DNA of 64,000 bases from an uncultured bacterium (GCA_903895695.1 CAITUY010000085.1:25052-89051), one strand, 5' to 3'. Positions 54,288-64,000 are shown, numbered from the stretch's first letter. Numbers and translations are program-made. The notes: generated by a model not told the origin, from the sequence alone.

Positions 54288-55187
54288 TTGACGATGCTTA
54301 AGTATTCCGTCTACGTGCTGGCAGAGGCGGTGAGCCGGGCTATCCCCCGGCCGTTCGCCTACTGGCTCAGCCTGCGGATCGCCGACGCCTACTTCTTCTG
54401 TGACCGGCGCGGGCGGGAAGCGGTGATGGACAACCTGCGGCACGTGCTGACGTTCGGCGGGGCCGCGGTTTCGGAGCGCGAGTTGCGCCTGGCGGCCCGG
54501 CGCACGTTTCAACACTTCGGCAAGTACCTCGTCGAATTTTTTACGTTCGCGCGGCTTACGCCGGAACAGATTCGGGAGTTGGTGGCCGTCGAGCACCGTG
54601 AGTATCTTGAGAAGGCTGTGGCCGCCGGCCGCGGCGTGATCGTGGTGACCGCGCATCTCGGCAACTGGGAACTAGGTGGGGCCGTGATGGCGGGGTTGGG
54701 TTATCCCCTCAATGTCGTCACCCTGCAGCAGACCTCGGCCAAGCTGAACGAGTTCTTCCAGCACCACCGGCAGCGGCGCGGCATGGCGATCATTCCGCTG
54801 GGGCATGCCGTGCCGCAGCTGATCCGGGCCTTGAGGCGCAAGGAATGCGTGGCGTTGCTGGCCGATCGCGATTACTCGCAGCGCACGGATTTCTCTCCGC
54901 TGTTCGGCGCCGCAGCGTGCCTGCCGCGGGGGCCGGTCTGGCTGGCGGAAAAGACGGGGGCCTTGGTCCTGCCCGGTTTCATGTTGCGCAAGGAGAACGA
55001 TACGTTCGAGTTGCGTTTCCATCCGCCCATCGACCCGACCGGCCTGTCCGCGGAACAGATCCGGAGTGCCATCGGCGCGGTTCTCGAGGACAGCGTCGCG
55101 CGCAATCCCCACCAGTGGTTCATGTTCGAGCGCGTTTGGAACGGACAGAGCTACGGTCGGGAAGCCGGGAAAGCCAGCGAACAGTGA
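54288..55187 (+). CDS. Lipid A biosynthesis acyltransferase family (LpxL/HtrB-like lysophospholipid acyltransferase)
   Basis: ~300 aa; HLGNWE (HX4D-like) motif and overall LpxL/LpxM architecture. Confidence 0.7.
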   Translation: MTMLKYSVYVLAEAVSRAIPRPFAYWLSLRIADAYFFCDRRGREAVMDNLRHVLTFGGAAVSERELRLAARRTFQHFGKYLVEFFTFARLTPEQIRELVAVEHREYLEKAVAAGRGVIVVTAHLGNWELGGAVMAGLGYPLNVVTLQQTSAKLNEFFQHHRQRRGMAIIPLGHAVPQLIRALRRKECVALLADRDYSQRTDFSPLFGAAACLPRGPVWLAEKTGALVLPGFMLRKENDTFELRFHPPIDPTGLSAEQIRSAIGAVLEDSVARNPHQWFMFERVWNGQSYGREAGKASEQ

Positions 55188-55354
55188 AGGGGTGCCGAGA
55201 CTGTAGGCTATAGGCTGTAGACCTTAGGAATACTGCAGCTTTTGGCTCTGGTGCTCGGCAAGGCATTTTCGACCTTCAGTTCCTGGATCTGCCCCGTTCG
55301 GCCCTACAGCCTACAGCCTAAGCTGCTACAGTCTTGGTGTTCACTGTTCACTGG
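55179..55354. repeat. Long imperfect palindromic element built from CTGTAGGCT/AGCCTACAG units, bounded by inverted CAGTGAA motifs
   Basis: Left arm GACTGTAGGCTATAGGCTGTAGACC (55199-55223) pairs with right arm GGCCCTACAGCCTACAGCCTAAGCTGCTACAGTC (55301-55334); GCAGCTT/AAGCTGC inner pairing; outer ACAGTGAA ... TTCACTGTTCACTG. Confidence 0.6.
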
Positions 55355-55411
55355 CTTCCTTGACGAACCTCGTGAGGCCCGGCATAGTACGGCGAACACG
55401 GGAACGTTAAC

Positions 55412-56113
55412 ATGTCACAAACGCGGCAATTGCAACGCGGATGCGTGGTCATACCGGCTTACAATGAGGAGCGGCGCATTGCCGCGGTGGTGCGGCGCGC
55501 GAAGGAGCAGGTTCCGGCGGTAATCGTGGTGGACGACGGATCGCGCGACGGGACGGCGCGTGAGGCGGAAGCGGCGGGGGCGTCTGTGTTGCGGCACGAG
55601 TCCAATCGCGGCAAGGGCGCGGCCCTTGAGACCGGCTTCCGTTATGCGCGCGGGCATGGGTTCGACTACGTCATCACGATGGATGGCGACGGCCAGCACG
55701 ATCCGGCCGATCTGCCGAAATTTGTGGAGGCTTATGTGCGCACCGGGATTCCCGTGCTGGTCGGCAACCGGATGGCCGATGCGGGCCAGATGCCGTGGAT
55801 CCGGCGATTCACCAATCGTGTCATGAGTTGGTTGTTGAGTCGCGATATGGGGCAGTACGTGCCCGACACGCAGTGCGGGTACCGGCTGCTGCGGTGCGAC
55901 GTTGTGCCGCTGGTATCGGCCGAATCCACGCGCTATGCGGCGGAATCCGAGATGCTGCTGCACGTGGCCGACCGGGGGATCCGGATCGATGCCGTGCCCG
56001 TCGCCACGATCTACCGGGACGAGAAGAGCAAGATCAACCCCTTCCGCGACACGATCCGGTTTATCCGGATGCTCCGGAACTATCGTCGGAAGAAGCGCGC
56101 CGCACGCCGGTGA
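55412..56113 (+). CDS. Family 2 glycosyltransferase (polyprenyl-phosphate sugar transferase, DPM1/ArnC-like)
   Basis: VVIPAYNEE...VVDDGSRDGT...DGDGQHDP (DXD). Confidence 0.8.
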   Translation: MSQTRQLQRGCVVIPAYNEERRIAAVVRRAKEQVPAVIVVDDGSRDGTAREAEAAGASVLRHESNRGKGAALETGFRYARGHGFDYVITMDGDGQHDPADLPKFVEAYVRTGIPVLVGNRMADAGQMPWIRRFTNRVMSWLLSRDMGQYVPDTQCGYRLLRCDVVPLVSAESTRYAAESEMLLHVADRGIRIDAVPVATIYRDEKSKINPFRDTIRFIRMLRNYRRKKRAARR

Positions 56114-56119
56114 GGGGTG

Positions 56120-56245
56120 CGGGTGCGAAGTCCGTCCTTTCTGGTCTGCCTCTTCTGGGAGCGGCGCGACTTCCCGCGCCGGCCGGAGCCGGAAGCGGCT
56201 CCGCTCCTTGTGGCAGGATGGTTTTCGGAGGCCTCTAGGACAACA
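56120..56245. repeat. Copy C (shorter variant) of the palindromic intergenic repeat family
   Basis: GTCTGCCTCTTCTGGGAGCGGCGCGACTTCCCGCGCCGGCCGGAGCCGGAAGCGGCTCCGCTCCTTGTGGCAGGATGGTTTTCGGAGGCCTC; lacks the central 26-nt segment present in copies A and B. Confidence 0.75.
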
Positions 56246-56610
56246 GGGATTTCACCACCCGCTGCGCTTGAGACACGGAGACCCGGAGGGGGATGCGGAG
56301 AGCACCAGAGGGGAAAAGATGCCGCTGCATCCTCCTATGCACTCGGCAGCTCGGTGTTGCGCGCATTTGGCACAGGGCTGCACCTCGCACGGGACCGGCC
56401 AATCGCCTGAAAGGCCCTCGCCCTGTGCCAAATGCGCGCAACGTTTCCACGGGAGAAGAAGGGGGCAGTGCCAAGCCAGGTCTTCCCCGTGCCTTCGCGC
56501 CCTCGGCCCGCCGTAGCTAACAGCGAAGGCGGCTCCAGCGTAGCGGGTGGTTCAGTTCTCGAGATAAGCTACGCCAACCTGGATTTCCCGGATTTCCCGC
56601 CGGAAACCTT

Positions 56611-56638
56611 TTGACATGGCGGCCGTTTCCGATATGCT
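56611..56638 (+). promoter_or_regulatory. Candidate promoter of tRNA-Pro
   Basis: TTGACA (56611-56616) - 16 nt - TATGCT (56633-56638), ~20 nt upstream of the tRNA 5' end. Confidence 0.35.
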
Positions 56639-56658
56639 TGTTGGGCTTTTTGGTCAGT

Positions 56659-56735
56659 CGGGGTGTAGCGCAGACTGGTAGCGCGTTTGGTTCGGGACCA
56701 AAAGGTCGGGGGTTCAAATCCCCCCGCCCCGACCA
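56659..56735 (+). tRNA. tRNA-Pro (anticodon CGG); 3' half serves as attachment site for the downstream integrated element
   Basis: Manual cloverleaf: acceptor CGGGGTG/CGCCCCG, D-arm, anticodon stem TTTGG/CCAAA with loop TTCGGGA (CGG), T-arm GGGGG-TTCAAAT-CCCCC, discriminator A, encoded CCA. Confidence 0.85.
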
Positions 56736-56820
56736 TTTCTTCCTTGCGTAGAATCACTCGAAAGCCCTGTGAATACAGGCTCTAATCGATGTTCAGCGCC
56801 TGCGGCGGTCCGCCTGCACT

Positions 56821-56884
56821 TCTGTGGAATTCTGCGAAATCCCTTTCTGTGGTTGCCACAGTTTTTACCACAGTTACCACAGTC
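56821..56884. promoter_or_regulatory. Cluster of CTGTGG / CCACAGT repeats at the left end of the integrated element (candidate integrase arm-type sites)
   Basis: TCTGTGGAATTCTGCGAAATCCCTTTCTGTGGTTGCCACAGTTTTTACCACAGTTACCACAGTC; matching TTGCCACAGTTTTAACCACAGTAGG at 63311-63334 near the other end. Confidence 0.5.
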
Positions 56885-56934
56885 GGCCGGGAAGAAAAAA
56901 CCTGAGTATTGTGCATGTGGTCCAATGCGCTTGC

Positions 56935-57342
56935 TCAGTTTGTGAACATTGCGCGCCACTTGAACCAGGCAAACCAGGAGATCGTGACGCCCAGGAAGCG
57001 CACGCCCGCGCGCACCGACCCCATTCCATACGCGCACTGGGTCCGGTAGAACCGCACGTTCGCATCCCACCCGCCGTTGCCCGTGCCCCAGTCGAAGTCA
57101 TGCCGCAGGCACGGCGGGAAGTAGATCGTCGGCCAGTAGACCTCCGACACCCCGGTGCACCCGTCGCAGTCCGTGAACCAGTCCCACTTGTCGGAGTCCA
57201 GCGCCTCCCGGATTAACGCCTGGATGTCCGCCGGCACGTTCAGCACGTCGAACGACTCGATGATTCGCCGGTACTCGGTCGCCCGGTCCAACCCTTCGCT
57301 CTTACCCTTGCCACACCCCATCACCCCGCAACGCCCGCTCAT
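56935..57342 (-). CDS. Hypothetical Cys/Trp-rich protein (last gene of the caspase-like operon)
   Basis: 136 aa from ATG 57342 (TAA-1nt-ATG junction with upstream gene); aromatic C-terminus ISWFAWFKWRAMFTN; no family recognised. Confidence 0.45.
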   Translation of the reverse strand: MSGRCGVMGCGKGKSEGLDRATEYRRIIESFDVLNVPADIQALIREALDSDKWDWFTDCDGCTGVSEVYWPTIYFPPCLRHDFDWGTGNGGWDANVRFYRTQCAYGMGSVRAGVRFLGVTISWFAWFKWRAMFTN

Positions 57343-57343
57343 A

Positions 57344-57601
57344 TTACCGCCCTTTCGCAATAGCCCACTTGAACAACAGGATCAGTCCCATGACGGCCGC
57401 AGTGAGGACCGTGCCCACGATGATCGAGAGCGCCCAAAGAAGACCGTGCAGAATCTGCTCGTGCCGCTCGATCCGGGTCTGAATCGACAAGGTCCCGTTA
57501 TCGCGGAATAACCGTTTCTCGATGGACTCCAGCTTCTGAAACACGCGCTGGTTGATCTCGCCGCATTGCGCGTGCGTCACGAATTCCCCTGTCTCCTTCA
57601 T
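57344..57601 (-). CDS. Small membrane protein, XhlA/holin-like (N-terminal coiled-coil, single C-terminal TM)
   Basis: 85 aa; INQRVFQKLESIEKRLFRDNGTLSIQTRIERHEQILHGLLWALSIIVGTVLTAAVMGLILLF; ATGA overlap with caspase-like gene. Confidence 0.5.
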   Translation of the reverse strand: MKETGEFVTHAQCGEINQRVFQKLESIEKRLFRDNGTLSIQTRIERHEQILHGLLWALSIIVGTVLTAAVMGLILLFKWAIAKGR

Positions 57602-58395
57602 TCCAACGCCCTGCCGTTTCTGAACGCCTCCAGGACCGTGCCGTATTCCTCATAGACCGGCACTTGAGTCCCCGGCATCAACGCGGCCGCGTTCGTGAAC
57701 CAGGACCGATACGTTCCCGTCTCGCTCCAGGCGTCAACCAGTGCCGTCGTGAATACGCCGCCTTGCGGCCCGCCGAGACTGCTCTGCCCGTCCGCACATC
57801 CGCCGTAGTGAATCAGCGCTGCATGGAACGGGGCAGGGAGGGCCTTCTTGTAGGACCGGCGCCGATAGTTCGTGCCTGAGTTGCAGGTATCGGTCACGAA
57901 GAAGACCCGCACGCCGACCGGAACCTCGGCCAGCACCGTGGAAAGGTAGGTGTCCGTCATCTGGCCATCCCAAAGGCAAAGCGTCTCGGAAAGACCATCC
58001 GCCTCCGTGGTGTCCCCATCGTCTACCTGGCCGCCGTGCCCCGATACGTACACCACGAGCAGGTCACCGGCCTTCATGCCCGCGCATGCCGCCCGAGCGG
58101 CCGCCTCCAGTGCGCCCTTGGTCGCCGCCGCGTTGTGATGCAGCGACACCTGCAGGCCCCGCTCGCGGCAGAGCATTGCGAATGTATCCGCATCCACGTC
58201 ACACCCGGGGCACGCGCCCGCCCACCCGCCGTATGCCGCCGGATCCACGGCCGTCAACCCGGCGACCACCGCCCGGCGCACTACGCCGGTCACCGACGTG
58301 AAGTCGTTCGTACAGTCGGTCACCGGTTGTGGCGCCGGCTGGCTCGCGCAACCCGCCATCAAAACACCCGCCAGAACGATCAAGATACCTCGCAT
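57598..58395 (-). CDS. Peptidase C14 caspase/metacaspase-like (orthocaspase) lipoprotein
   Basis: Lipobox LAGVLMAGC|AS; p20-like catalytic dyad in metacaspase context: LLVVYVSGHGGQVDDGDTTEADGLSETLCLWDGQ...VRVFFVTDTCNSGT (His in SGHG, Cys in DxCxSG). Confidence 0.7.
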   Translation of the reverse strand: MRGILIVLAGVLMAGCASQPAPQPVTDCTNDFTSVTGVVRRAVVAGLTAVDPAAYGGWAGACPGCDVDADTFAMLCRERGLQVSLHHNAAATKGALEAAARAACAGMKAGDLLVVYVSGHGGQVDDGDTTEADGLSETLCLWDGQMTDTYLSTVLAEVPVGVRVFFVTDTCNSGTNYRRRSYKKALPAPFHAALIHYGGCADGQSSLGGPQGGVFTTALVDAWSETGTYRSWFTNAAALMPGTQVPVYEEYGTVLEAFRNGRALE

Positions 58396-58496
58396 GTTAA
58401 ATCCCCCCTTGTTGTGTTTTCACCCTCGTCCGGGCAGCACTCGCCGCCCACTCACACCCGCATTACGCCTACCGCGCCACCCAAAGCCCGCCACCC

Positions 58497-59018
58497 ATGA
58501 CCACAGCGATGTGGTACTCGGACGGCAGTGTCAATGCCTGCCGTGTCAGCATTCCCGATCATGCCGGCCGCGAGGGCTATCTCCGGGAATACCCATCGCA
58601 CGCCGAAGTCAAAGCGCACATGCAAACGCGTCTGCAGCAAGGCGTGGCGTGTCCAACCCATGCCGGTGCGGTGACGACCACCCTCCCGTCCCGCGCTGCC
58701 ATGCGACAGTGCATGTCAACCTGTCCTGCAGGCACATGCACGACAAGAACTGCCGTTAAGTGCTATGCGCGCCGGCATGCCGGCGAACTCGAAGCCCGAT
58801 TCCAGAGAGCGGTAGTCGAGGGATTCGATGCCCTGTGGCAGTTTGGGGTGGGGGTGGCCTATGCCCTGTGGCCAGAAGCAGGACGGCAGCATGCCGGCCC
58901 GTTTTGTGCCGTCATGGCCATCGCCGGAAGCATGGGCATGTCCGAACGGGACATGCAGGTGCTGAGGGGTAACATGGCCCGACTAAGCGATACCCAGCGA
59001 CAAGGAGGCCCAACGTGA
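58497..59018 (+). CDS. Hypothetical protein (first of a translationally coupled trio on the island); start uncertain
   Basis: ORF ends with AAGGAGG RBS and GTGA overlap into next gene; C-terminal half protein-like, N-terminal half Cys/Thr-rich and possibly not coding. Confidence 0.35.
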   Translation: MTTAMWYSDGSVNACRVSIPDHAGREGYLREYPSHAEVKAHMQTRLQQGVACPTHAGAVTTTLPSRAAMRQCMSTCPAGTCTTRTAVKCYARRHAGELEARFQRAVVEGFDALWQFGVGVAYALWPEAGRQHAGPFCAVMAIAGSMGMSERDMQVLRGNMARLSDTQRQGGPT

Positions 59019-59611
59019 AAGAGGCGAGTATCATCGACGAACAAGCCGCCGATTCGGAAAAAGTGCAGGTCGGTCATCTGAAGGAACACACGGAGACGGA
59101 AAGGCTTGAGGGTGCGGCGGAGCATATCAGCCAGATCAAGCAGCTTCGGCCCGAAGTGTGGTCGGGTCTCACCGAGGCAGGGCGCGAGAGCTGCTTGCGG
59201 CAAGTCGGGCGGAGATTGTCGGAAGCCTATGAGTGTCCTGCCCCGCCGTTTATCGGAAGCCGCCTGGCCGAGGATGATCGCGGCATTACCCTTGGCGAGC
59301 ACTCCGATGACGAGTACATCACGAAAGTGAACCACAAGGTGCTCAACATGAACGAGTCTGGCCGGGCACTGGAGACATACAGCCACGAATTCCGCCACGC
59401 CTATCAGCACGAGATGGCGACTCGGTACAACTCAGCATTTAGACACCTGTGCCACGATGAAACCAAGGCCGCCCAGTGGGCCGAGAACCTGAAGCCCGGA
59501 AGCTACGTCTCCTTTGACGTGAACGCGGAGGGCTATGAGGCGCAGCCGGTCGAGAAGGATGCACGGGACTTCGCTGCCAGACTCAAGGAGGAGGTGCGGA
59601 GAAGGCAATGA
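59015..59611 (+). CDS. Hypothetical protein with HExxH zincin-like motif
   Basis: GTG start after AAGGAGG; acidic N-terminus; SHEFRHAYQHE motif. Confidence 0.45.
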   Translation: MKEASIIDEQAADSEKVQVGHLKEHTETERLEGAAEHISQIKQLRPEVWSGLTEAGRESCLRQVGRRLSEAYECPAPPFIGSRLAEDDRGITLGEHSDDEYITKVNHKVLNMNESGRALETYSHEFRHAYQHEMATRYNSAFRHLCHDETKAAQWAENLKPGSYVSFDVNAEGYEAQPVEKDARDFAARLKEEVRRRQ

Positions 59612-59705
59612 AGACGAACCACATGATACCAACTGCACGAGTTCTGCTCACGACTGAGTTGACGGCCGGACACGTCTCGCGCTAGGAAAACTGGAGGTAC
59701 GAAAG

Positions 59706-59945
59706 ATGGGATTCACGCTTGCAGGAGATATCACCGTCAAGGTGACGACTATGGCGCGTACGATGGGCACCAGCGATGAAGCGGTGGTCATTCCGGACAC
59801 AAACAATCAGGTGCTCGTTAGGCTCGGTTCAAGAGCCTTCCATGAACGGATGAAAGACACGACGATATTCAAGATTCCGGTAAGGTTGAAGACCGTGATA
59901 GGCGGGGTTGAGACTGAAGAACTATTCTTCGTTTGTACAAAGTGA
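59706..59945 (+). CDS. Small hypothetical protein, lower GC
   Basis: 79-aa ORF with AT-richer codon usage than host; preceded by GGAGG. Confidence 0.35.
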   Translation: MGFTLAGDITVKVTTMARTMGTSDEAVVIPDTNNQVLVRLGSRAFHERMKDTTIFKIPVRLKTVIGGVETEELFFVCTK

Positions 59946-60062
59946 TGTCGTGGGCACGTGCCAAGCACTGCGGTGCCAACGCGGCGAACCCTTGATGACA
60001 GATATTCCGCATTTGCCCCGCACTAATGCGCGGGGTTCAGGAATACGAACGGTCAAACCCTG

Positions 60063-61043
60063 TCATCTGAGCGCGTTAATTTCGGCTTCGAGTGCCTGCA
60101 ATCCGGCCACAATGACGCCGAAATCGGGCCGCTCGCCGAAGATCATGGACTGCATCTGTTCGTAATCGCGCGCTAACACCTTCATCACATGCTCAGGCGG
60201 CACGAGTTTCATCGTTCCCGGCGTCGCCAGGTCGTACCGAGCCCACCCGCGGTGATAGAACTTGTCCTTGAAGGCCGCCACCGCATGAAGCAGATCCAGG
60301 TCGGCGAACGCGTCACCCTTCACCCGGGTCTGCGCCATGCGATGCACGTCGTAGTAATGCCGCGAGTAACCCGCCGGCTGGACGCTTCCGGCGGGACGGT
60401 TGGCCTCATGATGCAGGATCGTGATCTTCTCCCAAAACGTTCGTTCCGCCTTGATGGCCTGTACCCGGCACGTCGGCCGCCGGAACACCGCAGGCAACGC
60501 CTCGGCCGAATAGGGCCGGATGTCATACTCCGCGTTCGGGATCCACGCAGCCAGTGGCCCCACTTCGAGTTGGATCTCCGGCCTCAGGTAGTCGCTGCCG
60601 AATGCCGCCGGATACTTGACCTTCACAATCTCGGGGTTGTCCCCGATCGTCGCCTCGCACGTGTCCCCTACGAGCCGGCGGACCTCAGGCAGGAAGGTCT
60701 CCCGCAGATACACGTGCGCCTGCCGCAGCAGTTCCTTGTTGAACACATCCTGTCGACTGACGGATCGCGCGGCCCGCGGATCCTCCTGCGTGATCTCCGT
60801 CCAGTCCAGGATCAGGTCGATGTCTTCGGAGAACCGCTCGATCAGACCAAATACCTTCGATAGGGAAGTGCCGCCTTTGAACAGAATCCTGCGGCCAATG
60901 GTCGCCGAACCGAATAACCGATCCAGCGTCCAGCACACCCAGAAGTCTTTCTCCACGACTTCCGGGGGCATCTTCTTGATCGCAGCGGCCTCGCGCATCA
61001 GATCCGCGCGGTCGGCCGCGCTCCAAGTGGCAACGGCATCCAT
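60063..61043 (-). CDS. abiEii: Type IV toxin-antitoxin nucleotidyltransferase toxin AbiEii/AbiGii family (DUF1814)
   Basis: ILFKGGTSLSKVFGLIERFSEDIDLIL hallmark motif; ~326 aa. Confidence 0.8.
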   Translation of the reverse strand: MDAVATWSAADRADLMREAAAIKKMPPEVVEKDFWVCWTLDRLFGSATIGRRILFKGGTSLSKVFGLIERFSEDIDLILDWTEITQEDPRAARSVSRQDVFNKELLRQAHVYLRETFLPEVRRLVGDTCEATIGDNPEIVKVKYPAAFGSDYLRPEIQLEVGPLAAWIPNAEYDIRPYSAEALPAVFRRPTCRVQAIKAERTFWEKITILHHEANRPAGSVQPAGYSRHYYDVHRMAQTRVKGDAFADLDLLHAVAAFKDKFYHRGWARYDLATPGTMKLVPPEHVMKVLARDYEQMQSMIFGERPDFGVIVAGLQALEAEINALR

Positions 61044-61654
61044 CAGGATTCCTCCCGGCAGATCTTCAGGATCGTGTCACGCACCCAGCCGCTCGCCGTC
61101 GCTGTGTCTTTCAACACCTTGGCCCGGAGCCCGGCGTTCAGGAAACCGCGTAGGGCCCGGATCGTGTCCGCAGTGATCCGGTCTGGCCCGAGTGTCTTCA
61201 ACGCCTGCACCAACAAGGAACTCTCCCGCTGTTTGAAACCGGCCTCTTTCAGCATGGTATGCTCAAACACGAGTTCCTGGCCGCCGACACGATACGTCCG
61301 GTCCGGTCCATCGGAGAGGTACGCGACGCGACCCATGACTTGCGTCGACAGCCCCAGCAGGTTCAACGCAGCCGGCCCGGTTGCCTGAATGCGCCACCCG
61401 AACTTCCGCGCCAACGCGTGCGCCACGCGGTCGATATCGGGACTCAACTCCCGGTCCAATTTCTTGCTGTACCGGGGATAGTCGTAGAGGCCCCGTATGA
61501 CACGGCGGATAGTCCCCCGTGCAAGCAATCGGTGCAGCGCCACATCAACCGCCGTCCGGGTCCCGATCCCGCTAAAATCAGTCTCGGAAAATGCCCAACC
61601 CCTCCCGTTGCCATAGACCCGGCTAACGACCCTGTTTTCAACGGTATTGTGCAT
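61043..61654 (-). CDS. abiEi: AbiEi-family antitoxin / transcriptional regulator
   Basis: ~203 aa, immediately upstream of and overlapping (1 nt) abiEii; size and position typical of AbiEi. Confidence 0.65.
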   Translation of the reverse strand: MHNTVENRVVSRVYGNGRGWAFSETDFSGIGTRTAVDVALHRLLARGTIRRVIRGLYDYPRYSKKLDRELSPDIDRVAHALARKFGWRIQATGPAALNLLGLSTQVMGRVAYLSDGPDRTYRVGGQELVFEHTMLKEAGFKQRESSLLVQALKTLGPDRITADTIRALRGFLNAGLRAKVLKDTATASGWVRDTILKICREES

Positions 61655-61755
61655 CTGAGTGACCCTGTTCCTGTAAGAAAATGTGCCACCTTCTTCTTAC
61701 AGCCGCAAGCCCCATCTTCACGCGCCCAATGCGCCGGCCGATCGCGCACTTCCCG

Positions 61756-63246
61756 TCATACCCTCTGCGCTTCCCGTACCACCCGCGAGTCAACCCAGTC
61801 TTTAGCCTGATTGACCAAATCGGCGGCCGTCTTCACTTGCTTCCGCCAACTCGGCTCAGGCACGATGGCTGCATTCTCCGCCAGGGCCGCCTGCAGCAAC
61901 TTCAGCCCTGCTTCCAGCAACTCACCCGGCCCTTGGGCCTCCCCGTACGTCTGACCGTCGTCACGCAGCACCGGCGCCCCTATGTCGGCCGGCTTCTTGC
62001 CTTCCCCCAGCATCAGCGCCGGCATCGCCCCCGTGATCGTCTTCGTAAAGTCATCACGCCCCGGCTTGAAGTAATTCTTGAGCACCACGTCCGCCGCCTT
62101 GTGGCCGGTCACGCGTCGAACCAGTTCCATCGGCACCCCCGCTGCCAGCGCCATGGTGATCCATGTGACCCGGAAACTGTGGAACCCCCGCACGTTCGCA
62201 GGGTGCAGCCCCTTGCCCCCTTCGCGCTCCACATGCACGTCTCCGCGCGTCTTGGTGTCGAGGCGTGCCAGCCCCTTCTTCTCCCGTTCCTTGTTCTTCT
62301 TGTCGATGACCGCTTGGTCGATGAACCCCGCCTTCTTGAACACAACCCCCAACCGCCAGTTCACACCATCGGGGTTATTCTGGTACATGTGCGCCAGTTC
62401 CGGGAACACGTACCCGCTCGCAGCGGCCGTCCGCTTCTCGAGTTCCTCCCGGAGCAACGCCAATAACGGGATTTCAACAGTCTCCCCGGTCTTGGACGTC
62501 TTCACCCGGATGTAGTTGTTCTTGAGGTCAACCGATTCCCACTTCAACAGGCAGGCATCCCCGCGCCGCATGGCCGTGCAGACGCCCACCACGACCAACG
62601 GTCGCATGAGTTCGTCATTCATCGCGGCATTCAGGATGATCCTCAGTTCCTCGGCGCTGAACGGCTTGCGGTGGATCGTATCCCGGTCCTTCGTCACGAT
62701 CCTGCCAAAGGGGTTCGTCAGCATGCCGGCGTCCTCGCGCAGGTGTTCGAAGGCGCCGCGCAGCAGGATCAGTTCCGAATTGAACGTCTTTGGGCTGATC
62801 TTGCGGTCATCCTCATGACGCATGAACGCTTCCGCCACCTTCTTGTCGACGGCCGCCATTTCCTTCACGCGCGGGAACTTGTCCTTTACGAAGTCCTGTA
62901 GGCGTTCAAACGTCCGCTCCGCCCACTTCACGTAGTGCTTCTTCGGTTGGCGTTTCCGCGGGATCTTCTTCCAGGCATCGTTCAGGTGGAGCAGGGGAAT
63001 ACTGCCGATCCGGTGCCCGAACTTCACCCTGTGGATCTCTTGCACCAGATCCTCCGGCCGCTTCTGCTGGTCGGAGTCCGCCACGACCTTTTCGAACGCC
63101 GTGAGCGCTGCTTGCCGGGTCACCTCGAAAGCCGGCTCGCCCGGTTTACCCACCGCCTCGACATTCAGGCGAGCGAAGTGCCGTTTCCCGTCCCGCATCC
63201 ACCGTCCGTACCAATTTTTACTGCCCGGCTTGAGTTCAATCCCCAT
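61756..63246 (-). CDS. int: Tyrosine site-specific recombinase / phage-type integrase
   Basis: C-terminal catalytic domain with R...HSFRVTWITMALAAGV...RVTGHKAADVVLKNY (R-H-R-Y tetrad); N-terminal SAM-like/arm-binding domains. Confidence 0.85.
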   Translation of the reverse strand: MGIELKPGSKNWYGRWMRDGKRHFARLNVEAVGKPGEPAFEVTRQAALTAFEKVVADSDQQKRPEDLVQEIHRVKFGHRIGSIPLLHLNDAWKKIPRKRQPKKHYVKWAERTFERLQDFVKDKFPRVKEMAAVDKKVAEAFMRHEDDRKISPKTFNSELILLRGAFEHLREDAGMLTNPFGRIVTKDRDTIHRKPFSAEELRIILNAAMNDELMRPLVVVGVCTAMRRGDACLLKWESVDLKNNYIRVKTSKTGETVEIPLLALLREELEKRTAAASGYVFPELAHMYQNNPDGVNWRLGVVFKKAGFIDQAVIDKKNKEREKKGLARLDTKTRGDVHVEREGGKGLHPANVRGFHSFRVTWITMALAAGVPMELVRRVTGHKAADVVLKNYFKPGRDDFTKTITGAMPALMLGEGKKPADIGAPVLRDDGQTYGEAQGPGELLEAGLKLLQAALAENAAIVPEPSWRKQVKTAADLVNQAKDWVDSRVVREAQRV

Positions 63247-63398
63247 ACGCGCCTCCCGGTTTAACCCTGTGCAATTCCTTTCAATCCGGCGACCTAAGTC
63301 ACCTACGAAATTGCCACAGTTTTAACCACAGTAGGCCAAAAAATCAACTCAAGAAGCCAGTAATGTCGGCAATCATTGGCAAAAACAGCAATTTCCGA

Positions 63399-63441
63399 TT
63401 TGGTTCGGGACCAAAAGGTCGGGGGTTCAAATCCCCGACCA
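63399..63441 (+). repeat. attR: 38-nt exact (43 with GACCA) direct repeat of the tRNA-Pro anticodon/T-arm
   Basis: Identical to 56686-56723 of the tRNA gene; the upstream half of the tRNA is absent here. Confidence 0.85.
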
Positions 63442-63458
63442 TCTTTCGTGAATAAAAA

Positions 63459-63497
63459 CCTCGCATTTCTTCAGGAAATGCGGGGTTTCTTGTCTTT
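63459..63497 (+). terminator. Rho-independent terminator (presumably the original tRNA-Pro terminator displaced to the far side of the island)
   Basis: CCTCGCATTTC-TTCAG-GAAATGCGGGG 11-bp stem (one G-U) followed by TTTCTTGTCTTT. Confidence 0.6.
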
Positions 63498-64000
63498 CAG
63501 CCGAAATGTTTTTCAGTCTGAAACAGGGCTGAATTTCTTGGTCAAGAACACCCACAAACGCACCCACAAACACCCACGAAATTTTGGGTCGCCGAGTGTG
63601 AGGGTCTACGGCAGCAACAAGTACCCAACGGCGGACGATGCACCGTCCGATGACGCCCAGCCATTCACGAGGTTCCTGCGTGCCGTGAGCCGCCTTGCTG
63701 ACGGACGAACCTTCGAGTGAACATGGGCAAGTACGAAATCCTCGCCCTGGGCGTGATCGCCGTCTGCCCCGCCATCCCGTGAGGGAACCGCCCGTCCACG
63801 GAATGCACCTGCGAAAAAACCGCCCACGGAACTGGCAACGCCGACGGTTGCGATCCTTGCGTGCAGGCACTGCATTTCAGTAATAATGAAATGTAGTTGA
63901 CCGTTTGTGCCTCGGGCTCTACCGTGCCACAAGGTGCGGCATATGAAACCGACTACTCGTACCGTAGGCAAACGTGTTGCGAAGGCGAGGCTGGCGATGA

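What the first reader, a model, noticed from the sequence alone, without database searches (positions are those of the whole stretch)
56659..63500. Integrative element at tRNA-Pro(CGG) with integrase, displaced tRNA terminator and CCACAGT arm-type repeats
A complete tRNA-Pro is followed by 6.7 kb of cargo. The cargo ends with a direct repeat of the tRNA's last 38-43 nt (63399-63441) and then a strong terminator that looks like the tRNA's original one. The tyrosine integrase sits ~150 nt inside the right end. Both ends carry clusters of CCACAGT/CTGTGG repeats (56821-56884; 63311-63334), plausible arm-type integrase binding sites.
Basis: seen in the sequence. Interest (0 to 1): 0.6.

Follow-up and report, generated by a model that had tools for sequence, protein, structure and literature searches.

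The report
Small genomic island in tRNA-Pro gene
A 6.7-kb piece of foreign DNA carrying its own lambda-like integrase and an AbiE phage-defence pair has inserted into a proline tRNA gene of a Kiritimatiellia-like bacterium; this is a well-known, ordinary kind of mobile island, though from a little-studied integrase family.

Summary
An intact tRNA-Pro(CGG) (56659-56735) is followed by 6.66 kb of lower-GC DNA. That DNA ends in a 38-nt exact copy of the tRNA's anticodon-stem-to-T-arm segment (63399-63436), then GACCAT after a 7-nt deletion, then a strong terminator hairpin. A 496-aa tyrosine integrase starts 152 nt inside the right end. A 22-nt block with two CCACAGT sites occurs only at the two island ends, and the left end has three further sites.

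Eight elements with 54-69% identical integrases show the same layout: reverse-strand tRNA-Pro(CGG) 3' fragment, a repeat pair at 12-nt spacing, then int. The repeat sequence changes with the integrase clade. A complete 5.9-kb island at tRNA-Met has the same two-arm arrangement. The integrase model has a lambda-Int-like N-terminal domain.

Related genomes share the left flank and the tRNA but lack the island; a clean empty site was not found. Cargo is AbiEi/AbiEii plus a caspase-like lipoprotein cassette that is also found in other elements.

Caveats: the deletion means excision would leave a broken tRNA, and the right flank may belong to an older element.

Verdict: a new member of a known kind, of low to moderate interest.

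The parts
56611..56638 (+). sigma-70-like promoter (TTGACA-16-TATGCT) upstream of the tRNA; host side
   Evidence: The region is conserved in relatives L094 and L097.
56659..56735 (+). intact tRNA-Pro(CGG) with encoded CCA. Its 3' portion from position 28 onward is inferred to be supplied by the island (attL).
   Evidence: The sequence is identical to the tRNA in relative L097.
56686..56736 (+). attL copy of the identity block. It starts at the first nucleotide of the anticodon stem and runs to CCA+1. Positions 56686-56723 are the 38-nt exact repeat.
   Evidence: (D3)
56821..56883 (.). P' arm with five arm-type sites: TCTGTGG at 56821 and 56846 (inverted orientation), and CCACAGT at 56856, 56868 and 56877. 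It includes the 22-nt block 56853-56874.
   Evidence: (D10). L024 has the same layout.
56935..57360 (-). 141-aa protein with an invariant DGC...CxRHDF motif; weakly PLA2-like, all-helical in the model (cargo)
57344..57601 (-). 85-aa protein with a C-terminal hydrophobic (possibly membrane-spanning) stretch (cargo)
57598..58395 (-). 265-aa caspase-like (Peptidase_C14) protein with a lipoprotein-type signal sequence (cargo). Together with the two genes above it forms a cassette, 56954-58513, that is 89-95% identical in nucleotide sequence to copies in other elements.
58497..59018 (+). 173-aa ORF with no family match; its stop overlaps the next start (GTGA); coding status uncertain
59015..59611 (+). 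198-aa protein with an HEFRH (HExxH-like) motif; function unknown (cargo)
59706..59945 (+). 79-aa ORF, function unknown
60063..61043 (-). AbiEii nucleotidyltransferase toxin (type IV TA / abortive infection)
   Evidence: PF08843, 5e-38; PDLC02289, 1e-101
61043..61654 (-). AbiEi / DUF6088 antitoxin-regulator; its stop overlaps the AbiEii start
   Evidence: It is 80% identical to the gene following int in L007.
61756..63246 (-). tyrosine integrase, 496 aa. Conserved residues R227/R228, K249/K252, H356, R359, H382 and Y392. N-terminal three-stranded sheet plus helix, and a helical tail of about 100 aa after the catalytic Tyr.
63311..63332 (.). P arm: two CCACAGT sites 12 nt apart, 66-86 nt upstream of the int start. 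The 27-nt block is identical to that of L009.
   Evidence: (D10)
63399..63442 (+). attR: displaced tRNA-Pro 3' fragment. It has 38 nt of exact repeat, then a 7-nt deletion (CCGCCCC between CCCC runs), then GACCAT.
   Evidence: It is not called as a tRNA.
63456..63488 (+). intrinsic terminator hairpin plus T-rich tail, displaced from the tRNA by the insertion
   Evidence: Relatives have an equivalent hairpin 9-10 nt after the tRNA.

Best explanation
What it is. Window 56736-63398 is a 6.66-kb genomic island. It was inserted into the tRNA-Pro(CGG) gene of a Kiritimatiellia-like (PVC superphylum) chromosome by its own lambda-type, heterobivalent tyrosine integrase.

How integration works (inferred). 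The circular element carries an attP of about 290 bp made of three parts:
- a P arm with two CCACAGT sites next to the int start;
- a copy of the tRNA from the anticodon stem to the 3' end;
- a P' arm with five sites.
The integrase's N-terminal domain binds the arm sites. Its core-binding and catalytic domains bind the two halves of the anticodon stem. Strands are exchanged within the 7-bp anticodon loop.

Result of integration. The element's tRNA 3' portion completes the host gene at attL. The former 3' portion and its terminator are pushed 6.7 kb downstream to attR.

Cargo. The island carries an AbiEi/AbiEii abortive-infection toxin-antitoxin pair, a three-gene cassette (caspase-like lipoprotein, small membrane protein, PLA2-like protein), and three unknown ORFs. 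It has no transfer, replication or virion genes, so movement between cells must depend on something else.

Shown versus inferred. Shown: the anatomy, the conservation and covariation of the sites, the fold prediction, and the island's absence from related genomes. Inferred: the crossover point, Int binding to the arm sites, and whether the island is still active.

The deletion. The attR fragment has since lost 7 nt of the acceptor/T-stem 3' strand. Precise excision would therefore leave a defective tRNA-Pro(CGG), which should select for keeping the island.
For: - Anatomy: an intact tRNA plus a same-orientation 38-nt exact 3' fragment, with an internal integrase.
- Composition: island GC is 60.8% against 65.6% for the rest of the window. 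That is lower than any equal-sized window elsewhere, where the minimum is 62.2%.
- Integrase: the invariant residues are those expected of a tyrosine recombinase. The AF2 model has an N-terminal three-stranded sheet plus helix at pLDDT 85-91. The best Foldseek hits are full-length lambda Int, 1z1b/1z1g, at E = 4e-9 over about 410 columns.
- Family architecture: 64 of 78 family loci have a reverse-strand tRNA T-loop within 400 nt upstream of int.
- tRNA-Pro targeting: eight elements with 54-69% identical integrases all abut a tRNA-Pro(CGG) 3' fragment. In the alignment, conservation on the int side ends just past the 5' strand of the anticodon stem.
- Arm sites: 51 of 82 loci have their best direct-repeat pair at exactly 12-nt spacing, 70-150 nt upstream of int. 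Control windows give 70 of 1558. The repeat word differs by clade (ACTGTGG, TGTTTGG, CTTTGGT, ACTTGGG, AACTACGG, GTGTGGG), but both copies change together within each element.
- A complete relative: L024 is a 5.9-kb island at tRNA-Met with a 53-nt repeat, two sites in P, and two direct plus two inverted sites in P'.
- Related genomes: L094 and L097-99 share Lip_A_acyltransferase-GT2-tRNA-Pro(CGG) at 75-95% nucleotide identity. They show no homology to the island.
- Cargo: relatives carry other defence cargo, including type I R-M, HipA, WYL, GmrSD and AIPR.
- Published principle: Islander paper, PMC4383910.
Against: - No clean empty site was recovered. An exact-match search for the predicted attB junction in metagenome contigs found nothing. 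Relatives differ downstream of the tRNA as well.
- No circular or excised form was seen.
- No excisionase-like gene was recognised.
- The attR fragment carries a 7-nt deletion that none of the seven aligned relatives has. The island may therefore be decaying, or locked in place.
- The P' arm could not be checked in the closest clade, because no relative there has both ends in hand.
- The integrase's domain assignment rests on a predicted structure with pTM of only 0.54.
Confidence: 0.88

Rival explanations
1. Fossil island. The element arrived by the mechanism above but is now immobile or domesticated. The damaged attR fragment and the lack of an excisionase would mean it no longer excises, or excises only at the cost of the tRNA.
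For: - The 7-nt deletion is unique to the window's copy.
- No Xis-like gene was found.
- Small deletions in displaced tDNA fragments are a known feature of islands (PMC4383910).
- L026 shows decayed repeat copies in the same family.
Against: - The integrase ORF is full length and keeps all invariant residues.
- The presumed core (anticodon stem-loop) is identical in both copies.
- The 27-nt P-arm block is identical to that of L009.
- The deletion lies outside the inferred crossover region.
Confidence: 0.35
2. Tandem array. The attR fragment, its terminator and the DNA to its right belong to an older element at the same tRNA. On this reading the 'original' terminator is element-supplied rather than chromosomal.
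For: - The right flank has low GC (55.6%).
- It contains CACCCACAAAC twice plus a degenerate copy at 12/11-nt spacing (63549-63582), which resembles the GTGTGGG arm-site class.
- It shows no similarity to the DNA downstream of the tRNA in relatives.
- L024's element supplies its own terminator next to the tRNA.
- Tandem integrations at a single tRNA are documented for tycheposons (bioRxiv 10.1101/2020.12.28.424599).
Against: - The order and orientation of the repeats is mirrored relative to the family's P' layout.
- No integrase or second fragment is visible, because the window ends at 64000.
- The repeat word matches no P arm among the roughly 110 loci fetched.
Confidence: 0.3
3. Remnant prophage or phage satellite. 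The caspase-like / membrane protein / PLA2-like cassette would be a lysis module, and the island would depend on a helper phage.
For: - The three-gene cassette has the shape of an exported-enzyme / holin-like / lipase-like module.
- Distant relatives of the integrase (39-42% identity) lie at the ends of IMG/VR viral contigs.
Against: - No island protein other than the integrase and AbiEii hits a PHROG family.
- The caspase-like protein has no relative in phage genomes or viral contigs.
- The island has no capsid, terminase, primase or packaging genes.
Confidence: 0.08
4. Not a mobile element. The repeat would be a chance match or part of a second tRNA or pseudogene, with the integrase unrelated to it.
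For: None beyond the lack of a demonstrated empty site.
Against: - The repeat core occurred in none of 100 shuffles.
- Only one tRNA is called.
- The same fragment-arm-int layout recurs in dozens of unrelated contigs.
Confidence: 0.01

Closest known systems
tRNA-gene genomic islands as defined by Islander (Williams 2002; Hudson, Lau & Williams 2015, PMC4383910), anticodon-loop ('symmetric') sublocation class
   Same: The island has an intact tDNA plus a displaced 3' fragment in the same orientation, and an internal tyrosine integrase. The identity block runs from the anticodon stem to the 3' end. The family uses several tRNA identities: Pro-CGG, Pro-GGG, Met, Asn, Arg, His and Glu. Small deletions near the 3' end of the displaced fragment are already described for such islands.
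   Different: The hosts are Kiritimatiellia, Lentisphaerae and Verrucomicrobiota. The integrase has no curated family name: nothing in NCBIfam reaches its cutoff, and identity to annotated phage integrases is at most 29%. The int gene lies at the end far from the intact tRNA, with its 5' end toward the att site.
Bacteriophage lambda Int and other heterobivalent integrases (P2, HP1, L5, Tn916/Tn1549 Int)
   Same: The predicted architecture has three domains, with an N-terminal sheet-plus-helix domain. Short repeats lie on both sides of the core in an attP of about 290 bp. The catalytic residue set is conserved.
   Different: Identity to lambda Int is about 15-17%. There is a 100-aa helical tail after the catalytic Tyr and an insertion of about 45 residues before the HxxR motif. 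The arm sites form a fixed pair at 12-nt spacing. No Xis or IHF sites were identified. The target is a tRNA anticodon loop rather than attB between gal and bio.
Tycheposons (Hackl et al., bioRxiv 10.1101/2020.12.28.424599) and other cargo-carrying, tRNA-seeded island builders
   Same: It is a small tyrosine-recombinase element at a tRNA, carrying defence or adaptive cargo. The tRNA locus differs between related genomes. A tandem arrangement is possible.
   Different: No replication module (primase or helicase) and no excisionase is present. The integrase was not tested for relatedness to tycheposon recombinases.
AbiE (AbiEi/AbiEii) type IV toxin-antitoxin / abortive-infection systems on defence islands
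   Same: The two genes overlap and give strong HMM matches.
   Different: Here the pair is cargo of a minimal integrase island. The AbiEi-like gene is also found directly after int, without AbiEii, in relative L007.

Membership tests
tRNA-integrated genomic island (Islander criteria) | Full-length tDNA at one end | tested here: met
   ARAGORN and Rfam both call tRNA-Pro(CGG) at 56659-56735.
tRNA-integrated genomic island (Islander criteria) | Cognate 3' tDNA fragment downstream, in the same orientation, and not itself a tRNA gene | tested here: met
   A 38-nt exact repeat at 63399-63436 (+), followed by GACCAT. No tRNA is called there.
tRNA-integrated genomic island (Islander criteria) | Tyrosine integrase gene inside the interval; length 2-200 kb | tested here: met
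   int at 61756-63246, PF00589. The island is 6,663 bp.
tRNA-integrated genomic island (Islander criteria) | Absent from the same site in related genomes (empty attB) | tested here: inconclusive
   Relatives L094 and L097-99 keep the left flank and the tRNA and lack all island DNA. Their downstream DNA also differs from the window's right flank. The exact-junction search found nothing.
Anticodon-loop ('symmetric') sublocation class of tDNA integrases | Identity block starts at the anticodon stem/loop and extends to the tRNA 3' end | tested here: met
   The block starts at tRNA position 28, the first nucleotide of the anticodon stem. The same boundary is seen in 8 aligned elements and in L024. 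The actual crossover point is not testable here.
Lambda-type heterobivalent (arm-site-dependent) tyrosine integrase | Catalytic R-K-H-R-H-Y set | tested here: met
   R227/R228, K249/K252, H356, R359, H382 and Y392 are invariant in 18 sequences. The assignment to the lambda positions is by motif and fold, not by a residue-level superposition.
Lambda-type heterobivalent (arm-site-dependent) tyrosine integrase | Separate N-terminal arm-binding domain | tested here: met
   AF2 predicts strands 3-5, 11-18 and 21-30 plus helix 38-59 at pLDDT 85-91. The best fold matches are full-length lambda Int chains. This is a prediction only; Pfam found no arm-binding domain.
Lambda-type heterobivalent (arm-site-dependent) tyrosine integrase | Repeated arm-type sites on both sides of the core within attP | tested here: met
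   Two sites at 63314/63326 and five at 56821-56883. Position and spacing are conserved, and the sequence covaries with clade.
Lambda-type heterobivalent (arm-site-dependent) tyrosine integrase | Int protein binds the arm sites; directionality factor (Xis) and bending protein are used | not testable with these tools
   No Xis-like gene was recognised. Binding needs biochemistry.
AbiE type IV TA / abortive infection | Adjacent AbiEi (wHTH antitoxin) and AbiEii (nucleotidyltransferase) genes | tested here: met
   PF08843 5e-38, and DUF6088/AbiEi_4. PADLOC gives AbiEii 1e-101 and AbiEi 3e-58. The genes overlap at 61043.
Prophage | Virion structural, packaging and lysis genes | tested here: not met
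   Only the integrase and AbiEii hit PHROGs. The caspase-like protein has no phage matches.
Integrative conjugative / mobilizable element | Relaxase, T4SS/coupling protein or oriT | tested here: not met
   No such Pfam families were found in any island ORF. oriT cannot be recognised with these tools.
Tycheposon | Tyrosine recombinase plus a replication module (primase/helicase) at a tRNA | tested here: not met
   No primase or helicase is in the island. Relatedness of the recombinases was not tested.

The most novel reading that the evidence does not exclude
This island may be one member of a large, undescribed integrase family of the PVC superphylum. In that family, arm-site specificity (a fixed pair at 12-nt spacing) and tRNA target have diversified together, and small defence cassettes shuttle between members. 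In this copy, the 7-nt loss in the displaced tRNA fragment makes the island's own tRNA 3' half indispensable. The tRNA is then held 'hostage', which stabilises an element that has no other maintenance function apart from AbiE.
Probability: 0.3. Interest if true: 0.4.

Novelty: new member of a known kind. Interest (0 to 1): 0.25.

Why it matters
It adds a cleanly delimited, minimal example (integrase plus att sites plus 7-8 cargo genes) of tRNA-targeted integration from Kiritimatiellia and other PVC bacteria, where mobile elements are barely described.

It also yields predicted attP, attB and arm-site sequences that could be tested directly. The family-wide covariation between integrase clade and a rigidly spaced arm-site pair is a useful natural data set on how heterobivalent integrases change specificity.

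The principle itself is textbook, so the finding does not change understanding.

Tried and rejected
- Empty site. An exact-match search of metagenome contigs for the predicted attB junction (CGCCCCGACCATCTTTCGTGAATA) gave 0 hits.
- Genome collection. It gave no close genome.
- Source contig and right flank. The P0001 contig turned out to run into the island, not into the right flank. The P0252 look-up found nothing.
- Viral collections. No viral contig matches the arm block or the caspase-like protein. Only 39-42% integrase relatives were found there.
- P' arm in the closest clade. None of the loci fetched reaches the far end of its island. The both-arms argument therefore rests on the window itself and on L024.
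- Right-flank repeats as arm sites. The words CACCCACAAAC and, from the relatives, GGACGATTCG were tested as arm sites of other family members. Neither matches any P arm among the loci, so this is left open.
- Literature. Williams 2002 and 2003 are not held in the library. Their content is cited only through PMC4383910 and from my own knowledge.
- Rejected ideas. A second tRNA gene is ruled out. ARAGORN's 72-nt minus-strand 'tRNA-Pro' next to int in L016 has a poor acceptor stem on inspection and was treated as a fragment.


Full report
**1. Observation**

- The window holds one tRNA gene, tRNA-Pro(CGG), at 56659-56735 on the + strand. Rfam finds only this tRNA in 55000-64000, at 67.9 bits.
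- A sigma-70-like promoter (TTGACA-16-TATGCT) lies at 56611-56638.
- The longest direct repeat in 56300-64000 is 38 nt and exact: 56686-56723 / 63399-63436 (D3). A 31-nt core of it occurs exactly twice in 64 kb and never in 100 shuffles.
- The repeat begins at tRNA position 28, the first nucleotide of the anticodon stem.
- In the right-hand copy the sequence after AAATCCCC reads GACCAT. In the tRNA it reads CCGCCCCGACCAT. The right copy therefore lacks 7 nt lying between two CCCC runs. The ancestral repeat was about 51 nt, reaching one nucleotide past CCA.
- Eleven to fourteen nucleotides after the fragment comes a 15-bp hairpin with a T-rich tail at 63456-63488. Its MFE is -21.3 kcal/mol and z = -5.65.
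- The sequence after the intact tRNA folds only weakly (z = -2.2) and has no T-run.
- The 496-aa ORF 61756-63246 (-) matches Phage_integrase and phrog_1. It starts 152 nt inside the right repeat.
- CCACAGT occurs 7 times in the window, which is not more than chance overall: 6 are expected. Five of the seven sit in two short clusters at the island ends.
- With the two inverted CTGTGG copies, the left cluster is the only place in 64 kb with at least 3 hexamers in 80 nt.
- The 22-nt block TTGCCACAGTTTTNACCACAGT occurs only at 56853 and 63311.

**2. What lies between the repeats**

The 6,663-bp interval has 60.8% GC, against 65.6% for the rest of the window. That is lower than any equal-sized window elsewhere, where the minimum is 62.2%. 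Reading from the integrase end, it encodes:

- AbiEi/DUF6088 (61043-61654) and AbiEii (60063-61043). The two genes overlap and give strong Pfam and PADLOC matches.
- A 79-aa ORF, a 198-aa ORF with an HExxH-like motif, and a doubtful 173-aa ORF.
- A three-gene operon on the minus strand:
  - a Peptidase_C14 (caspase-like) protein with a lipoprotein-type signal sequence;
  - an 85-aa protein with a C-terminal hydrophobic stretch;
  - a 141-aa protein with an invariant DGC...CxRHDF motif, which is weakly PLA2-like.

No virion, replication, conjugation or excisionase genes were recognised.

**3. The integrase and its relatives**

- The protein has hundreds of homologues in metagenomes. The named ones come from Lentisphaerae and Verrucomicrobiota MAGs.
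- An 18-sequence alignment keeps R227/R228, K249/K252, H356, R359, H382 and Y392 invariant.
- The AlphaFold model (mean pLDDT 75, pTM 0.54) has an N-terminal three-stranded sheet followed by a helix at residues 1-59, with pLDDT 85-91.
- Its best Foldseek matches are full-length lambda Int chains, 1z1b_B at E = 3.6e-9 and 1z1g_A, aligned over about 410 columns. Tn1549 Int and XerA follow. Sequence profile search agrees.
- No curated NCBIfam model reaches its cutoff. Annotated phage integrases are at most 29% identical.

**4. Comparative evidence for the att site**

I fetched the DNA around relatives of the integrase.

- tRNA fragment next to int.
  - In 64 of 78 loci with enough upstream sequence, a reverse-strand tRNA T-loop lies within 400 nt upstream of int.
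  - Eight elements with 54-69% identical integrases all carry a reverse-strand tRNA-Pro(CGG) 3' fragment.
  - When aligned, sequence conservation begins exactly at the tRNA 3' end and stops just past the 5' strand of the anticodon stem.
  - Only the window's copy has the 7-nt deletion.
- Paired repeats.
  - About 65-80 nt further on, every element has two copies of a short word with 12-nt start-to-start spacing, 70-100 nt before the int start.
  - The word is ACTGTGG in the closest clade. There the 27-nt block of L009 is identical to the window's.
  - The word becomes TGTTTGG or CTTTGGT in the next clades, and both copies change together.
  - Across the family, 51 of 82 loci have their best short direct repeat at exactly 12-nt spacing in this region. 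Control windows give 70 of 1558. The words differ by clade: ACTTAGTCC, ACTTGGGT, AACTACGG, GTGTGGG and others.
  - This is what co-evolving protein-binding sites look like.
- A complete relative, L024 (44% identical integrase).
  - It is a 5.9-kb island at tRNA-Met with a 53-nt direct repeat.
  - Its layout is the window's: fragment, two AAACTTGGGT sites, int, cargo, then two direct plus two inverted copies of the same word, a terminator, and the intact tRNA.
  - The window's P' arm has three direct plus two inverted copies in the same order relative to the tRNA.
- Target switching. Within the close clade, other members use a tRNA-Asn-like fragment (L015) or sit after an intact tRNA-Arg (L019). 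Different tRNA identities within one integrase subfamily fit the behaviour reported for such subfamilies (PMC4383910 and the Klebsiella preprint).

**5. Related genomes**

- The neighbouring GT2 glycosyltransferase has homologues named Kiritimatiellia/Kiritimatiellae. Lentisphaerae and Verrucomicrobiota names appear further down the list.
- Contigs carrying 84-85% identical GT2 proteins (L094, L097-99) share Lip_A_acyltransferase-GT2-tRNA-Pro(CGG) with the window. Flank identity is 75-88% in nucleotides, and 90-95% around the tRNA.
- These contigs have no similarity to any part of the island.
- In them a strong hairpin terminator follows the tRNA after 9-10 nt, with MFE of -23.8 and -23.5 kcal/mol. 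That matches the spacing between the window's displaced fragment and its hairpin.
- Their DNA further downstream does not match the window's right flank either. This shows the island is accessory and the locus variable, but it is not a clean empty site.
- An exact-match search for the predicted attB junction found nothing.

**6. Mechanism**

- The best reading is classical lambda-type site-specific recombination at the tRNA anticodon loop.
- The stem halves TTTGG/CCAAA would serve as core-type sites around the 7-bp loop TTCGGGA. The CCACAGT sites would be bound by the N-terminal domain.
- The attP of about 290 bp spans 63311-63398, then the identity block, then 56737-56883.
- Integration leaves the element's tRNA 3' part completing the gene at attL. 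The previous 3' part and its terminator end up at attR.
- The anatomy, conservation, covariation and fold prediction are shown. The crossover position, Int binding to the sites and present activity are inferred.
- The P-arm sites lie 66-86 nt upstream of the int start, so they may also autoregulate int. That is speculation.

**7. The deletion**

- Every possible crossover within the 38-nt identity lies upstream of the deletion. Precise excision would therefore leave a tRNA-Pro(CGG) lacking its acceptor 3' strand.
- Small deletions near the 3' end of displaced fragments are a known feature of such islands (PMC4383910).
- Slippage between the CCCC runs is the simplest origin.
- The consequence would be selection against loss of the island. 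I cannot exclude an assembly error.

**8. Open point on the right flank**

- Region 63442-64000 has 55.6% GC.
- It contains CACCCACAAAC twice plus a degenerate third copy at 12/11-nt spacing, at 63549-63582.
- An HTH-like ORF starts at 63944.
- This may be the edge of an older element in a tandem array, as described for tycheposons. In that case the terminator was supplied by that element.
- The repeat order is mirrored relative to the family's P' arm, and the word matches no known P arm.
- The window ends too soon to decide.

**9. Verdict**

- It is a new member of a well-known kind. It meets all testable Islander-type criteria and the testable features of a heterobivalent integrase system.
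- It is not a prophage, an ICE or a tycheposon by their defining genes.
- Interest is low to moderate. The most useful by-product is the family-level picture of covarying, rigidly spaced arm sites in a PVC-wide integrase family that carries defence cargo: type I R-M, HipA, WYL, GmrSD and AIPR in relatives.

Noticed in passing
window 56954-58513: The caspase-like lipoprotein / 85-aa membrane protein / 141-aa PLA2-like operon is 89-95% identical in nucleotide sequence to a cassette on other metagenome contigs (L101-L107). There it follows helicase-C, 96-aa, 262-aa and BNR-propeller genes. In L101 it abuts an unrelated 396-aa integrase next to tRNA-Ser(CGA). The homology breaks 19 nt inside the 141-aa gene's 3' end and 118 nt upstream of the C14 start. 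The cassette therefore appears to move between different islands. Its function (lysis, toxin or defence) is unknown.
   Followed up: partly
window 56935-57360: The 141-aa protein belongs to a tight family of about 186 homologues, all at least 60% identical, all 'hypothetical', and named Kiritimatiellae where a name exists. The motif DGC...PPCLRHDFD is invariant. The model is all-helical (pLDDT 79). Foldseek finds no significant PDB match. The best profile hit against PDB sequences is a PLA2 chain, but only at E = 1.1.
   Followed up: partly
window 63549-63582: CACCCACAAAC occurs twice, plus ACCCACGAAA, at 12/11-nt spacing. The repeats lie about 110 nt after the displaced tRNA fragment, in 55.6%-GC DNA, upstream of an HTH-like ORF that starts at 63944. 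They may be arm sites or the remnant of a second element at the same tRNA.
   Followed up: partly
L094 10966-10989; L097 2857-2880: In two related genomes, a conserved pair GGACGATTCG-N2-GGA(C/T)GATTCG at 12-nt spacing lies about 100-120 nt after tRNA-Pro(CGG) and its terminator. The surrounding DNA is otherwise diverged. L094 continues with island-like genes (DUF6161, DUF2726, HNH). This suggests the tRNA is a recurrent integration hot spot.
   Followed up: partly
window 56114-56592, inverted repeat 56356-56378 / 56420-56442: The GT2-to-tRNA spacer is 545 nt here, against 203 nt in L097 and 68 nt in L094. The extra DNA contains a perfect 23-bp inverted repeat with a 41-nt loop. One metagenome contig (L002) ends in it. 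It may be a small insertion or a MITE-like element.
   Followed up: no
window 61043-61654; L007 11545-12156: The AbiEi/DUF6088 protein is 80% identical between the window and L007, more than the integrases are (62%). It sits directly after int in both. L007 has no AbiEii next to it; HsdM follows instead. The gene may be part of a conserved int-proximal module rather than a simple antitoxin.
   Followed up: partly
window 61756-62070 (integrase residues about 393-496): The integrase has a helical extension of about 100 aa after the catalytic Tyr392, and a low-confidence insertion of about 45 residues (about 310-355) before the HxxR motif. Many homologues cover only about 83-85% of the query length. 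The role of these parts is unknown.
   Followed up: no
window 63371-63385 (A2 alignment columns about 145-160): A short block (GCCAATGATT on the int strand) between the tRNA fragment and the arm-site pair is partly conserved among the tRNA-Pro-targeting elements. It may be an accessory-protein site or part of the int promoter.
   Followed up: no
L015 9740-9800; L019 229-305: Within the 61-65% identity clade, one integrase abuts a tRNA-Asn(GTT)-like fragment whose identity starts in the anticodon loop. Another lies directly downstream of an intact tRNA-Arg(TCG) on the same strand, which is the opposite arrangement. This indicates switching of both target and orientation within the family.
   Followed up: partly
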